Below, in pieces: positions 619-12,600 of a stretch of DNA of 64,000 nt. The stretch lies in contig CM120641.1 of the NCBI GenBank assembly GCA_051362555.1, positions 15,810,001 through 15,874,000 on the forward strand, written 5' to 3'. The notes under the pieces were generated by a model. It saw only the letters and a list, made by a program, of their open reading frames with translations, did no database searches and had not been told where the DNA came from. Position numbers and translations under genes: made by a program. Source of the stretch: Lingula anatina (taxonomy: Eukaryota; Animalia; Brachiopoda). Position 1 is the first letter of the stretch, and each line of letters opens with the position of its first letter.

Positions 619-3600
619 GACCAAGAGTGAGCTAAAAGCCAGCAAAACATCACTAAATAAGACAGACACAGCAGAAGCAAGGGAATTTTCATCAAAGACA
701 AGTTTACATTCAAGTAAGTCCAATTGAAAAAATCTATTTTATAAAATGTTTAAATACTTCCGTAATTAGTTCCTTATTTTATCAGCCATATTACCAGCAT
801 TTTATCACATTTTGCTGCCAAAATTTTGGGTATGTTTTCTTAAACTTTTTACAGTTTACAAATTAACATGAGTATTTTCAACTTGATTTAGCATTTTGCT
901 CAAAAACAGAAGTGAATATCTCAAAACTGTCAGTGGAATGCTCTGTTGCTCCTTATTTGCTTACTCTTTTGTGTGACAAGTATTTTGTTAAGCTGCTTTG
1001 TATTTTCTGCCATGATTTACCAATTAGCCATTAAATCCCCATATGGATCAGGCAACACAATATTCCCTATTACAGAATTTATCTGCTAGTAATAAATTCC
1101 TTCAAGTTAACAGGTGATACTTGTATTATAGATCCCAGAGAAAGAGTCTCTTCAGTGTCCAGTAGGAAGAGAGAGAGGGTGTCTTCAGTGGGCAGCAGGA
1201 AGAAAGGGGACCTGGATGAGGGGGATATCCCACTGGAGGTGGAAGATTACGCTGCCCTGAAACGCCAGGTGTCACAGTATGATGAAGGAGTGTGTACACC
1301 GCCTCCTGCCCTCAGGAAGAAACAAGTGGAGGCAGAAAAACTAATTAAAGCAGAGACAGCAGAGACTGGCAGTGTGAGATATCTGTCCTCATATCTATTC
1401 ATTATTAACGAGGATGTTTCATAAGTAAACAGTCTGACGATTTTCATTAGAGAGTTTCCGGTGCAGGTGGGATACGACGGCTAGATTGTTACGTATGTGC
1501 AAATGTATCTAGTAACGCGCTACTCTTTTCTCGTTCCGGTAAAGTTCCAGAATGCTGGCGCTTCCCGCCCCGCTCATTCCAATATAATTAACAATATACG
1601 GCCCCTTAGCCATGTATTTCCAAGGTGAAGATTCTTTTTTATGAAAAAGGAGACAAATATTACCCAAAAGAGCAATTTTTCCCGACAAATATGGCGGTTA
1701 GTAAGATCAACCCCCGACTACGTGCCTGATAAACCAAAATTAGCGCCTCCTCTCTCTTAAAAAGTCGAAATTTGCATGAACATACACTTGAACTATGGTA
1801 AAAAAAGTATATAAGGCATATAAATTAGCAAACATAACCTTTAATAACTATTTTCAATAATCTTCCTCACTGGCTAGATAGGAGCGCTTGTATTCCGCAG
1901 ACTAGATTGGACGACGGTATATGAATGCGGTGAACGTCACAAGTGCGCACAAACCGATGACGTATTAATCTAGCCGGCATATCTCACCGGCAACGGAAAC
2001 TCTCTATTAGTGTAATTGGTGATTTGATAATTTTGATACAAAGTATTTTACGATTGAACTAAATTGATTTTTTTTTGTATGCTTGAATATTTTTCCTCAT
2101 TTCCAGGTGAAGCTTTCTGTGTTTATAATCTACATGAAAGCTATAGGGCTTTGGGTAACACTGGCTGTTGTATTTCTCTATATCCTCAACAATGCAGCTG
2201 CCATATACTCCAATGTATGGCTCAGTGAGTGGAGTAATGATGAGGCCATTAATGGAACAACTGATACAGCCCAGAGAGATCTACGGTTGGGTGTCTATGG
2301 AGCTTTAGGTCTTGCTCAAGGTATGGTTTGTGTTTTTTCAAGATAAGACTTGTTTTTAGTAAAGGACTATTGGTTTGGAATGATTCAGTTAACAATTTTT
2401 AAAAATTAAGAAAAAAGAAATTAATGTCAGGCATCTTGATTGATGCAGGGTTTGTAATCTGCAATAGTCCTTTTCCAAATTTTATATTTTGTCTCAGCAG
2501 TATAATGTTTAAGTTGTTCATATTTAGATAACAAGCCAAACGTAGCTTGTATGAAATGTAATAATGATATTCCTCCTGTTGTGGCGCTGTGACCCCATCA
2601 ACTGGCTGTGAGTTAATGAACTGATTCAAAATACTTACATACTGATAGATGTGTGAAGAGGTGTTGCCTTCACCCAGAGCATGACTACCTCAGATTGCTT
2701 AATTTTTTTATTTTTTATTTTTTTTTTGGCTTGACTGCCGTAATTTTTCTTATGGAAGATGTAGTCACCAATCCCACCACTAGGAGGTGCAGTCAGAGCA
2801 TTAAAATGAAATTCATTGTTCGAGTAACTTTTTGAATATTTATTTCCTGTTGATGAGGAATGGTTATTCATTAAATATTTAGTCAAGAGCTTTGTTTTAT
2901 ATAATTTGTCATATATAATGATATATTACTGATAATTTGTCATCATCAGTAATATATCATCAGTAATATATAATGATATATTACTGATGATGACATATGA
3001 TTCTAGTTATAATCAGTATGAACAATTTTCTTGCATAATTCGGGTTTTGGAATTCCTTTTACAGGTTTTAATCGGTAGATAGTTCTGCTTTTAGTAAAAT
3101 TTAAAAAATGGAGATGTGCAGTTCCACGCAAAAGGTGACAACTTGGTTGGAAGCTTGAACTGTCATAGAATATCATTTCAGGTTTTCTAGAGATAGCCAG
3201 TGCTTTCTCTATGGCAATGGGAGGTTTAAAGGCTTCCAGACATTGGCACGCCAAACTGGCAGATAATCTCCTTCATGTACCAATGATATTTTATGATAGC
3301 ACACCCGTGGGTAGACTGTTAAATAGGTTCTCTGGGGACATGAACACTATAGACCAAGTCATGCCTTTTACTGTGAGATCCATGCTCAATACTATCATCA
3401 TAACCTGTGGGACCTTTGCTGTGATAGGATCTACAACTCCCACTGTAATAACTGTGATACCTGCACTAGCTGTGATATATTTCTTTGTACAGGTACTTGA
3501 TGTTTACCAAAGTACTTTCCTTAAGCTTTCTTTTAATGTTCTGTCAAAGCTAAACAGGAAGACTGGGTAAAGGGGACCCCATGATCAGTGTTTATTTGCA

Positions 3601-9600: not shown

Positions 9601-12600
9601 GCTGTAGAGTCATATTCACCCTTATTTAATAATCAAAGCTATTTGCATGTTATATTTAAATCTTTGCTTCAAAATGTTTATGATTCCCATCTGGCTTCTC
9701 AGCATGAGTTAGATATTCTGCCATATCCTTTGTTTTAATTATTCAAAATCACTCAAAGAGGGGTGGCCACGGGACTGGTCAAAATACACCCAAGCAATAA
9801 TTTGATATAGTTGAATTTGCTGCAGTATTGTCTGTACATTGATTGACGGTGCTGTACAGTTTTCTTTATGTACAGACAGATAGTATCTGTGCATAAAGTC
9901 CCATGTGTCTGTCGTCACTGTAAGTGTTGTCAGTGTTGCTGTGCACTTTCAGGGATAACACAATAAGTGGAAAACCATTTATTTCAACCTTTTGTCTTCA
10001 AACTTACAGAACTGATGGATATTCATAAAATACAGGTCAAGGGTCCAGTTAGTAAATCAATTGGGCTTTTTTATTAAAGTATATTTTGAAAATGAAATGC
10101 TAAATATCGCCCAAATCTGTGCTCTTATATGTCTGTACTTTGAACAGCTTTGCTGCTTGTTTCTTGGTAGTATTTGTATGATATTCTTTGTTTGGTAAAA
10201 GCTGCATTTTTAAGTTATATCTTTGCATTTGCTTTACTAAAATTGCTTTATGTGTATGTAAGAGAGCATGATGTTCTTGGAACTTTTCCAAAACTTTTCT
10301 GAGAATTTTTTTTCTGTGACAGTTTAACCAGATTATTAATGAGTTGGTGCATTCAAGTCCTGTTTATACAAGTAGACTGACTCCAAATTAAGATATGACT
10401 TCAGTGAAAGCATGTCACAGGACCAACATATCCAGTGATGTAGCTCAGGTGGTATATCCATTGGTTACTTTCACTTGCACATGTGGTAAATTATGTCCAG
10501 AAGACTGCCTCAAATTATATCTAAAAAATTAGAGATCAGACCAGATCTATCCTAAACATCCTGGAGTTAAGTGAAGGAAGTACTTGTATAAACTTGACTT
10601 TTTGTACCCAAACTTGCATGCGTGGTTTCCATAGTTTGTGGATATAGGACTTTTGAGTTGCTGTTTTGTTTTCTAGCTTGGTTTGTAGCATTTTGTTGGC
10701 CTTCTAGACATACTTGGTAACTATTGTGCATGCAGCCCTGTTTGAAGTTTTCACGTTCTGTCCCACTAACAGGTAACCTTGCACATTAATTAAAGTCTTA
10801 GTAGATTTAGTTATTCACTCAATGTTTTTGACCCATTAGAATTTCCCAGGCATGAATTTGAATAACAAAATGTTGGCTGCCACTCCAAAATACAAAGATT
10901 TGTTTGCTTGAAATTGTGAAATACACACAAATATCCAAAATCTTGGATTATTTGAATTTCTTACTGTAGTTCCCTTGAACTTGTGGGCACTAGGTGATTG
11001 GTCGGCCAATGGTCTTTGTATTTTGGGGTTTGTCAGTCTTCCTGTTTAGTTTTGGTTGCAGAAATAAAAATATAATTGTTTTGTCATGTTAAGTTATTTT
11101 ACTGATAAAAAGATTAAGCTTTGAAATTTTCAATAATATTATTATTATTATTCAGTTTTCAAATACAGTTTTATTTGTTCATTCTAATTGTATACTTGGC
11201 AGTATAATATACCATGACGATGAGAAGAGGGTGATATTTTAATATTAATACATTTCTTGTAGAGATTTTATGTTGCCACTTCAAGGCAATTGAAGCGGTT
11301 AGAGTCTGTGACCCGCTCTCCTATATACTCGCATTTTGGAGAGAGTATAACTGGAGCTAGCATTATCCGAGCCTATGGACAAACAGAGAGGTTTATTCTC
11401 CAGTCAGAAGAGAAAGTGGATGAAAACCAAATCTCATATTATCCTAATATTGTATCTAACAGGTTTGTTGGATTTTACTTTTATTTTCATTATTTATTCA
11501 TCTTTAATGATCAAGTATTTTTTTTCAAGAGAATTCCATTTTTATTATATAGGCTAGGAAGTGATGAAAAAGCTTTACCAAGGATGATGTATGTTGCACT
11601 TTCAATAAATAATGTGCAATGGCCATTTTGCTCACATCTTCAAATCACCTTTATCATCGTTATCATGTTCGTCTTCACTCCTTTACTTTTTATAGATGGT
11701 TAGCCATTCGCCTGGAGTTCATTGGGAACTGCATAGTGCTGTTTGCTGCTCTGTTTGCTGTCATAGGCAGAGACTCTTTGAGTGCTGGAATTGTTGGCCT
11801 CTCGGTTACCTATGCATTAAATGTAAGTATAGACTTTATTTCACAAATCCTCTTTTCTAAGTTAATGTGTCTCATGCCAATTCTAATTTATGTAATTTTT
11901 ATGTTGAAGTTTTAGCTGTTGTTTGAAAAGCAAACCTGGCAGTTATAGGTTTCTTCTTGTTTTCAATTTCCTTGATTGCGTTAGGATAATTTTACCAATA
12001 TTTGACAACTTTTGCAATTCTTTCCATCCTTGTTATTTCAGATAACTCAAACGTTAAACTGGATGGTGCGTATGACCAGTGAACTGGAAGCTAATATTGT
12101 GGCTGTGGAGAGAGTCAAGGAGTACTCTGAAACACCTACTGAGGTACATTGCCTGGCATATACTCTGAGTAAAAAGGAGAACATAATGCCATTTTGGCTG
12201 TATCTTGTATTTTAATACAATGGTAGAATTTGTTAAGGCTTGTGTTAATTGCTCACTGTATTAAAAATGAAATGAAAATTCAAGTAGTTACATATTTTAA
12301 AAGTACCTTTTTGTGGATTTAGATTAATCAATGGTAGAACCATTGGTTTGCATTACTTGAATTTTTTCTTCCTTTTTTTTTTTGGGGGGGGGGGAGGGGG
12401 CGGGCGGTAAATTGAAAAAATTTGGTAATCTTTCGAGCTTCTTTAAAGATGGAAGTTTCACAGAGGGGCCAGCCATCGCAAAAAAGAGTATTGATACAAG
12501 ATTTTTATGTACAGACACAGATGTGTCTGTACATATTGCCATCACCTGCGTCTGTCGTCGCCGTCGCCGTCGCCGATCATGTCGCCGTCGCCGTCGCCGT

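What the first reader, a model, noticed from the sequence alone, without database searches (positions are those of the whole stretch)
3543..11056. Docking-site/selector long-range RNA pairing across the exon cassette
Seen: CTAAACAGGAAGACTG (3550-3565, 57 nt after variant A) is perfectly complementary to CAGTCTTCCTGTTTAG (11034-11049), 7.5 kb away and about 210 nt before the downstream constitutive exon. G-U pairs extend it to about 3543-3566 with 11033-11056. This duplex would loop out B-E and join A to the next constitutive exon. A second candidate selector after variant D, AGGAAGTTTGGCAGGC (7101-7116), pairs with overlapping GTTTGTCAGTCTTCCT (11028-11043) at 15 of 16 positions counting G-U, so the two would compete. 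Weaker G-U-rich candidates follow B (~4384-4402) and C (~5248-5257). Established: competing docking/selector pairings control exon choice in insect Dscam1, 14-3-3 and MRP1. Inference: the same logic operates here.
Basis: partly seen in the sequence, partly recalled or inferred. Interest (0 to 1): 0.88.

Follow-up and report, generated by a model that had tools for sequence, protein, structure and literature searches.

The report
Brachiopod MRP1 exon-choice RNA pairing
In a lamp-shell (brachiopod) drug-export gene that carries five interchangeable versions of one exon, two intron stretches 7.5 kb apart are complementary over 24 bases, and this pairing likely helps the cell pick the first version, a kind of splicing control already known from insects.

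Summary
The gene is an MRP1/ABCC1-like gene of Lingula anatina with five tandem TMD2 exons (A-E); any two together, or none, shift the frame. 3543-3566 pairs with 11033-11056 over 24 contiguous pairs (20 Watson-Crick, 4 G-U); 0 of 200 shuffles reach it, and neither arm looks like a repeat. The D selector is longer than reported (7065-7117). With accessibility counted it ranks 2nd of 219 windows for the same dock (1 of 38 shuffles), but it is ordinary in two other tests. The B and C candidates are chance-level. In a lineage about 9% diverged the A arm is unchanged (0 of 23; p about 0.12), with no compensatory change seen. RNA reads show c0-C and c0-D joints but no A-to-c1 joint. No upstream dock was found. 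Verdict: a probably functional downstream docking site with two competing selectors (A, D), a new member of the known MRP dock/selector kind. The scan met this kind before in other MRP1 genes.

The parts
2107..2320 (+). upstream constitutive exon c0 (start of TMD2)
   Evidence: AG/GT ends, open frame; spliced reads 1373->2107, c0->C and c0->D
3182..3492 (+). variant exon A (311 nt)
   Evidence: AG/GT ends, in frame alone; low read depth, no joint listed
3543..3566 (+). selector A: 5' arm of the 24-pair long-range helix (predicted extension to 3539)
   Evidence: unchanged 3532-3575 in run X10
3572..3581 (+). predicted second helix of selector A with 11024-11031; probably not used
   Evidence: duplexfold; 3576-3578 differ in X10 and X20; displaced by the 10882-11029 hairpin in co-folding
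3926..4239 (+). variant exon B (314 nt)
   Evidence: read depth in X18
4914..5224 (+). variant exon C (311 nt), closest to the single exon of the neighbouring paralog (55%)
   Evidence: c0->C joint in 3 reads of X18
5663..5973 (+). variant exon D (311 nt)
   Evidence: c0->D joint in 6 reads of X15
6368..6385 (+). 5' arm of an 18-pair helix with 9486-9503 that would loop out exon E (candidate second D element)
   Evidence: -32.4 kcal/mol stacking; 4 of 100 shuffles; 4 of 121 natural blocks
   Evidence: rank 2 of 219 windows; structure; 1 of 38 shuffles; ordinary
7203..7890 (+). two nested helices inside intron D: 7203-7220/7873-7890 (18 pairs) and 7281-7300/7781-7800 (20 pairs)
   Evidence: -38.2 and -31.7 kcal/mol stacking; role unknown
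7984..8294 (+). variant exon E (311 nt), likely the default when the dock is free
   Evidence: read depth in X18; default role inferred
9486..9503 (+). 3' arm of the 6368-6385 helix
10882..11029 (+). local 19-pair stem 10882-10900/11011-11029 next to the dock; predicted compatible with the A helix
   Evidence: region 10860-11080 folds at z -3.05, 1 of 200 shuffles as good
11027..11063 (+). docking site (core 11033-11056)
   Evidence: only non-repeat purely intronic bin with X18 reads at 95% likeness or more
11263..11462 (+). downstream constitutive exon c1
   Evidence: c1->c2 joint

Best explanation
The intron just after exon A and a site about 210 nt before the next constant exon of this Lingula MRP1 gene are complementary over 24 bases, and in the pre-mRNA they likely pair as selector and downstream docking site, which would loop out exons B-E and favour joining A to the constant exon. 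Shown: the five-exon cassette, the frame logic, the complementarity and its excess over chance, and spliced c0-C and c0-D reads. Inferred: pairing would bring A's 5' splice site (51 nt from the arm) next to the c1 3' splice site (207 nt from the dock) across a 7,466-nt loop. A longer element in intron D (7065-7117) is predicted to bind the same dock almost as strongly, so A and D would compete; D pairing would loop out E, perhaps helped by 6368-6385/9486-9503. E would be the default when the dock is free. B and C have no detectable selector, so their choice likely rests on splice-site competition or proteins. Messages with two variants or none shift the frame and would likely be removed by nonsense-mediated decay.
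For: Perfect 16-mer extended to 24 pairs. 0/100, 0/200, 0/60 and 0/121 controls reach the A helix. Position is the one described for downstream docks in 14-3-3zeta, Mhc and MRP1 (PMC6071210 passages). The helix is stronger on the transcribed strand (-39.1) than on the other (-29.1). Of 219 cassette windows, the two A windows and the D window take ranks 1-3 for dock binding, and 0 of 167 outside windows reach them. D: 0 of 44 natural blocks, 1 of 38 shuffles and 0 of 16 decoy docks. No other copy of either arm in 64 kb. X10 lays 4 contigs on 3480-3900 with no loose ends, which is not the pattern of a dispersed repeat. A arm unchanged in X10, 0 of 23 against 24-25 of 277 elsewhere. The dock bin is the only one of 12 non-repeat purely intronic cassette bins in which reads of the same diverged lineage (X18) pass 95% likeness, with changes listed at 10963, 11064 and 11067 and none listed between. 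The cassette has 5 helices of -28 kcal/mol or better against a mean of 0.68, maximum 3, in 60 shuffles.
Against: No functional test and no compensatory change. Invariance of the A arm alone is not significant (P about 0.11-0.12 for 23 nt, 0.07 for 28 nt), and 3780-3877 of the same intron is also well kept. The dock conservation rests on about 4-5 reads, with 26 difference rows hidden and possible 3' bias. The predicted extension 3572-3581 is altered in the diverged lineage. No A->c1 joint was listed, and A has the lowest X18 depth (0.39) while B and C, which lack selectors, have 2-3 (A may simply fail the 95% filter). D is ordinary in a 40-nt duplex scan (12 of 40 shuffles reach intron D's best) and in a search over the whole last intron (63 of 121). 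The dock bounds were chosen after seeing the D pairing, and the decoy docks were scanned at a coarser step. A stronger far pair of repeat-like origin lies in the same gene. In 6 unrelated animal loci (5 distinct) with an A-like first variant and a complete last intron, no such helix was significant (5 to 28 of 40 shuffles). G+T-rich sense-strand introns favour G-U extension by themselves.
Confidence: 0.66

Rival explanations
1. Only the A-dock helix is functional. It is a single loop-out element that rescues the most distant variant, and the D match is chance, so there is no competition for the dock.
For: D is ordinary. Its pairing is broken into helices of 4-10 pairs. It sits 1,091 nt from D's 5' splice site. 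No X18 reads passed 95% in its bin. B and C work without selectors.
Against: Rank 2 of 219 windows and 0 of 167 controls with a dock region fixed beforehand; 1 of 38 shuffles; 0 of 44 natural blocks.
Confidence: 0.3
2. The complementarity is a neutral leftover, such as a short inverted duplication or a decayed element, and exon choice rests on splice-site strength, proteins and decay of frameshifted messages.
For: A 50-nt 98% inverted copy 4.4 kb apart lies elsewhere in the same gene. Arm conservation is not significant alone. Frame alone explains why double-variant messages would be rare. A is not the most covered variant in X18.
Against: The A pair sits where selector and dock are expected. 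It extends by G-U pairs on the sense strand only, whereas the 12421/16833 pair scores the same on both strands. It shows no extra copies, a second intron binds the same site, and both arms show no change in a lineage about 9% diverged as far as could be seen.
Confidence: 0.2
3. Exon choice is set by a set of separate, partly nested stems (A/11033, D/9486, intron-D stems, dock hairpin, perhaps B/9822), not by competition for one site, as described for hymenopteran MRP.
For: Five strong helices against at most 3 in 60 shuffles. 6368/9486 at 4 of 100 and 4 of 121. 4344-4358/9822-9836 at 9 of 200. [quoted passage not shown]
Against: The B stem fails once accessibility is counted (75 of 121). There is no C stem (179 of 200). 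Nested stems can form together and so do not exclude each other. The intron-D stems could be a decayed inverted repeat. Conservation of these stems was not tested at base level.
Confidence: 0.3

Closest known systems
MRP/MRP1 mutually exclusive exon clusters with competing RNA pairings (Yue et al. 2017, RNA Biol 14:1399; paper not held. Seen only through passages of PMC6071210, PMC6027157, PMC8791459 and PMC9741552; the Capitella example is recalled)
   Same: Same gene family, tandem homologous exons, docking site downstream of the cluster, several pairings; already reported outside insects (Branchiostoma MRP).
   Different: Brachiopod host; no paper found on it, but the 2017 paper and its supplements could not be read. 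Only 2 of the 4 upstream variants have a candidate selector. The A pairing spans 7.5 kb. No mutational evidence here.
Drosophila 14-3-3zeta, Mhc and Dscam1 exon 4/9 downstream docking sites (Yang et al. 2011, not seen; described in PMC6071210 passages and the PMC4691838 Discussion)
   Same: Selector in the intron after a variant pairs with a dock in the last intron; the dock-proximal exon is the default when the dock is unpaired.
   Different: There the selectors are conserved across species and tested by compensatory mutation. Here B and C have none and conservation is only suggestive.
Bidirectional pairing of srp and Dscam exon 4/9 (Yue et al. 2016, PMC4691838; abstract, Discussion and passages read)
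   Same: More than one long-range pairing per cluster; pairings can cross as a pseudoknot (6368/9486 crosses 7065/11061).
   Different: No upstream docking site was found here: none of 10 intron pairs beat shuffles (7 to 26 of 30).
[quoted passage not shown]
   Same: Competing selectors for one dock; extra helices inside the cluster; balancer-like structures are mentioned there for MRP1.
   Different: The Dscam exon 6 dock is upstream and serves 48 variants. The extra helices here are untested.

Membership tests
MRP1/ABCC mutually exclusive exon cluster | Gene is an MRP1/ABCC1-like transporter | tested here: met
   Best named hits of c0 and D are MRP1/ABCC proteins with PF00664 and PF00005; spliced reading open to a stop at 18145
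MRP1/ABCC mutually exclusive exon cluster | Tandem homologous exons of equal phase, each able to replace the others | tested here: met
   Five exons of 311-314 nt, 34-57% amino-acid identity, each in frame alone; 10 of 10 pairs and full skipping give early stops
MRP1/ABCC mutually exclusive exon cluster | One variant per mRNA in transcripts | tested here: inconclusive
   c0->C (3 reads, X18) and c0->D (6 reads, X15) skip upstream variants; no variant-to-variant or variant-to-c1 joint reached the 3-read listing limit in 4 runs with 25-126 reads laid
Downstream docking-site/selector system | Docking site in the last intron, complementary to a selector after a variant, beyond chance | tested here: met
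Downstream docking-site/selector system | Two or more selectors compete for overlapping parts of the dock | tested here: inconclusive
   D supported; ordinary
Downstream docking-site/selector system | A selector for every non-default variant | tested here: not met
   B and C rank 96-126 and 64 of 219; 101 and 69 of 167 control windows bind as well
Downstream docking-site/selector system | Arms conserved above intron background | tested here: inconclusive
   A arm 0 of 23 against about 9%, P about 0.12; dock partly seen in X18; run X11 laid nothing
Downstream docking-site/selector system | Compensatory base changes between species | tested here: inconclusive
   No change seen in the core, so none could be compensatory; no second species with alignable introns
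Downstream docking-site/selector system | Arms are not copies of a dispersed repeat | tested here: met
   No further copy in 64 kb; 4 contigs and no loose ends on the A arm region; no loose ends at either arm in RNA runs.
Downstream docking-site/selector system | Disruptive and compensatory mutations change exon use | not testable with these tools
   Needs minigene or in vivo editing
Bidirectional (upstream plus downstream dock) system | Upstream docking site in the first intron pairing with internal introns | tested here: not met
   i0 against iA-iD: 11 to 25 of 30 shuffles as good (ungapped helices only)
Known Rfam RNA family | Match to a curated covariance model | tested here: not met
   0 matches at gathering score in 2321-11262 against 4227 families

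The most novel reading that the evidence does not exclude
Variant A is an ancient exon shared, in first position, with a distant lophotrochozoan lineage, so part of the MRP1 cassette would predate the split of phyla and not have arisen independently. Lingula has built its own RNA code around it: a hairpin-presented dock that serves only A and D (D binding both sides of the hairpin base, backed by a second crossing helix around E), while B and C are chosen without RNA pairing.
Probability: 0.2. Interest if true: 0.62.

Novelty: new member of a known kind. Interest (0 to 1): 0.42.

Why it matters
If functional, it extends dock/selector control of mutually exclusive MRP1 exons to brachiopods, with a long (7.5 kb) and unusually clean helix that gives a direct mutate-and-rescue test. 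The cassette swaps 103 residues of the second membrane domain, which likely changes what the pump exports (inference). A cluster where only some variants have selectors bears on the open question of how the other variants are kept apart. The principle itself is established, also for MRP outside insects, so the surprise is moderate.

Tried and rejected
No whole genome was held, so repeat checks rest on the window and on laid reads. B (4382-4403, -14.9) and C (5247-5269, -13.5) candidates against the dock: rejected. Alternative B stem 4344-4358 or 4247-4261 with 9822-9836: 9 of 200 ungapped, but 75 of 121 with accessibility; not kept. Upstream dock: not found. Hidden extra variants: tblastn found only the five plus the paralog's single exon. 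The extension helix 3572-3581/11024-11031: not kept. The run search listed no RNA holder, which is no evidence either way; raw RNA runs were laid instead (6 of 9 raw RNA runs and 2 of 12 contig runs were laid). Run X11 (organism B) laid nothing on 3480-3900. 80 metagenome loci share no intron sequence with the window. In the two-variant loci no significant helix joins the first variant's intron to the last intron, and their conserved intron block has no consistent partner. The protein search with variant A found only distant hits. The 73-row tree did not finish its careful search, so a smaller tree was used; no AU test was run. Yue et al. 2017 and Jin et al. 2018 were not held. A toy fold with A, D and the dock joined by linkers gave the dock to D; it depends on the pieces chosen and was not used as evidence.
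Full report
Setting. The window's first 18 kb hold the 3' half of an MRP1/ABCC1-like gene on the + strand. Between constitutive exons c0 (2107-2320) and c1 (11263-11462) lie five homologous exons: A 3182-3492, B 3926-4239, C 4914-5224, D 5663-5973, E 7984-8294. 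They are 34-57% identical in protein, with AG/GT ends and the same phase. Each alone keeps the frame; all 10 pairs and full skipping give early stops. tblastn found no further variant, only the single exon of a paralog on the minus strand. That paralog matches RefSeq Lingula anatina MRP1 at 100% over this exon and about 95-100% over most others, so the organism is the brachiopod L. anatina. No whole genome was held.

Observation. All coordinates are right: a perfect 16-mer, 24 contiguous pairs for 3543-3566/11033-11056 (20 WC, 4 G-U), and 15 of 16 for 7101-7116/11028-11043. The A pair is far beyond chance. Its duplex energy of -45.7 was reached by 0 of 100 shuffles. It is the best ungapped helix between intron A and the whole last intron, reached by 0 of 200 shuffles. 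It is the best helix of the whole cassette, reached by 0 of 60 block shuffles, and 0 of 121 natural control blocks match it. One caution: among 5 natural tiles of the same size, one holds a stronger far pair (12421-12470/16833-16882), a 98% inverted copy that scores the same on both strands. The A helix scores -39.1 on the transcribed strand and -29.1 on the other. That fits selection on RNA, but G+T-rich introns favour it too.

Repeat check. The 16-mer has only one other match in 64 kb, with 3 mismatches, and short-word blastn finds no copy of either arm. Run X10 lays 4 contigs on 3480-3900 without loose ends. RNA reads gave loose ends at the known repeats (1448-2006, 9987) but not at either arm.

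The D selector. In a 40-nt duplex scan it is ordinary (-25.7; 12 of 40 shuffles reach intron D's best). With ensemble accessibility and a dock region fixed beforehand (10870-11075), the window 7054-7133 ranks 2nd of 219 cassette windows (-21.5; A windows -23.0 and -21.5), and 0 of 167 outside windows come close (best -13.7). The element is longer than reported: 7065-7074 pairs with 11052-11061, and further helices run to 7117/11027. 0 of 44 natural blocks of intron D's length reach it (dock bounds chosen after seeing the pairing). With dock bounds set by the A pairing, 1 of 38 shuffles and 0 of 16 decoy docks reach it (decoys scanned more coarsely). In a seeded search over the whole last intron with 64-nt pieces it does not stand out (63 of 121). 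I take it as more likely real than not. A and D use overlapping bases, so they would compete.

B and C. Their candidates give -14.9 and -13.5 and rank 96-126 and 64 of 219; 101 and 69 of 167 controls do as well. No other partner in the last intron holds up (75 and 64 of 121). No upstream dock was found (none of 10 intron pairs beat shuffles).

Other helices. The cassette has five non-local helices of -28 kcal/mol or better, against a mean of 0.68 and a maximum of 3 in 60 shuffles. Besides A/dock these are 6368-6385/9486-9503, which would loop out E (4 of 100; 4 of 121); two nested stems inside intron D (7203-7220/7873-7890, 7281-7300/7781-7800); and 10882-10900/11011-11029 beside the dock, predicted to form together with the A helix (region z -3.05). 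None matches Rfam.

Conservation. Runs X10 and X18-X20 belong to a lineage about 9% diverged in intron A. In X10, 3532-3575 is unchanged, covering the whole A arm: 0 of 23 against 24-25 of 277 scored positions elsewhere, P about 0.11-0.12 (0 of 28, about 0.07). Positions within 30 nt of contig ends are not listed by the tool and were left out of the count. This is suggestive only, and 3780-3877 is also well kept. Three changes at 3576-3578 alter the predicted extension helix, so only the core is kept. For the dock, X18 reads at 95% likeness or more cover the bin 10724-11097 at depth 2.3. Of 13 purely intronic cassette bins, only this one and a repeat-holding bin have X18 reads. Changes are listed at 10963, 11064 and 11067 and none between, but depth is 4-5 reads and 26 rows were hidden. 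No compensatory change was seen. Run X11 laid nothing.

Transcripts. Four RNA runs gave 25, 94, 126 and 39 reads. Listed joints include c0->C (3 reads, X18) and c0->D (6 reads, X15), so upstream variants are skipped. No variant-to-variant or variant-to-c1 joint reached the listing limit, so A->c1 is unseen and exclusivity is not proven. In X18, A has the least depth and B and C the most, which shows that selectors are not needed for good use, unless A reads fail the likeness filter.

Related loci. 80 metagenome loci share no intron sequence with the window. Twelve have a two-variant arrangement like c0-V1-V2-c1 in whole or part. In the 6 with a complete last intron no V1-to-last-intron helix was significant (5 to 28 of 40). 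Their first variant resembles A: a shared motif in 7 loci and 0 of 128 other proteins, and a branch at SH-aLRT 83.5 / UFBoot 97. Their proteins are lophotrochozoan-like but could not be placed further.

Mechanism. Most likely a downstream dock with two selectors. When selector A pairs, A's 5' splice site (51 nt from the arm) comes next to c1's 3' splice site (207 nt from the dock) and B-E lie in a 7,466-nt loop. When selector D pairs instead, E is looped out. With a free dock E is the default, as in the model described in the PMC4691838 Discussion. B and C rely on other means, and frameshifted messages are likely degraded. The anatomy and statistics are shown; pairing in vivo, its effect on splicing, the default role of E and decay are inferred.

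Known systems. Downstream docks in 14-3-3zeta, Mhc and MRP1, independent MRP exon duplications across phyla, and a multi-stem ensemble in hymenopteran MRP are described in passages of PMC6071210. Branchiostoma MRP and balancer-like structures in MRP1 appear in passages of PMC8791459; multiple competing pairings in Drosophila MRP1 in passages of PMC6027157; unrelated fly and nematode mrp events in passages of PMC9741552. For PMC4691838 I saw the abstract, the Discussion and passages. Yue et al. 2017 itself and Jin et al. 2018 were not held; the Capitella example is recalled. Searches for Lingula with these terms gave one database paper (listing only) and nothing. The unread 2017 paper and its supplements may already include Lingula. 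Earlier scan notes on other genomes report the same kind in an arthropod MRP1 and an octopus gene, and a chance-level case in another MRP1; none was checked here, and none matched this sequence.

Verdict. The feature is real and probably functional. It works like, and is best filed as, a new member of the MRP dock/selector kind, though it does not meet the 'selector for every variant' feature and lacks covariation. Confidence 0.66 for a dock with selector A and probably D; interest 0.42.

Noticed in passing
window 21630-34770 (minus strand): A second MRP1-like gene lies tail-to-tail with the first and matches RefSeq Lingula anatina MRP1 (P0073) at about 95-100% over most exons. It has one copy of the cassette exon (25061-25369), closest to variant C.
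   Followed up: partly
window 17556-17806 vs 22001-22250: One NBD2 exon is 100% identical in protein between the two paralogs and 93.6% in DNA over 251 nt running into the intron, while other exons are 75-80% alike. Looks like gene conversion between inverted neighbours.
   Followed up: no
window 12421-12470 and 16833-16882: A 98% inverted copy of 50 nt flanks constitutive exons 16218-16364 and 16547-16705. It could loop them out; it looks like a mobile-element fragment (same score on both strands).
   Followed up: partly
window 3184-3492; loci L005, L024, L027, L033, L035, L038, L039 (first variant): Variant A shares the motif PFT[VI]RS[MI][LI]N with the first variant of 7 of 80 metagenome loci of a lophotrochozoan-like animal, and with 0 of 128 other proteins held. 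A and the first variants of four such loci form one side of a branch with SH-aLRT 83.5 / UFBoot 97. Suggests an old shared duplication; long branches and 103 columns limit it.
   Followed up: partly
loci L009, L024, L027, L033, L035, L038, about 150-220 nt after the first variant: A conserved 26-nt intron block ending in a branch-point-like TACTAA; no consistent pairing partner found; not present in the window's intron A.
   Followed up: partly
loci L019 and L056: Other animal MRP loci with 3-4 tandem copies of the same exon; introns not examined for pairing.
   Followed up: no
window 3780-3877: The 3' part of intron A is also well kept in the diverged lineage (about 2-3 changes in 98 nt), and X18 reads cover it; may hold regulatory sequence for exon B.
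   Followed up: no
window 1448-2006: Element with 47-nt terminal inverted arms (85% complementary) in the intron before c0; reads from other places lie on its ends, so it is a repeat, likely a MITE.
   Followed up: no
window 9865-10163, 12504-15990: A repeat family copy inside the last cassette intron, with longer copies and 159-nt tandem units downstream, including a duplication of about 1.67 kb.
   Followed up: no
runs X10, X18, X19, X20: Runs under the same species label differ from the window by about 9% in intron A and by several percent in exons, and share variants with each other: a distinct lineage under one name.
   Followed up: partly
proteins P0085/P0107-P0119 and P0089/P0120-P0122: RefSeq isoforms of Mya arenaria and Littorina saxatilis MRP1 differ in this same exon, so molluscs also carry alternative versions.
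   Followed up: partly
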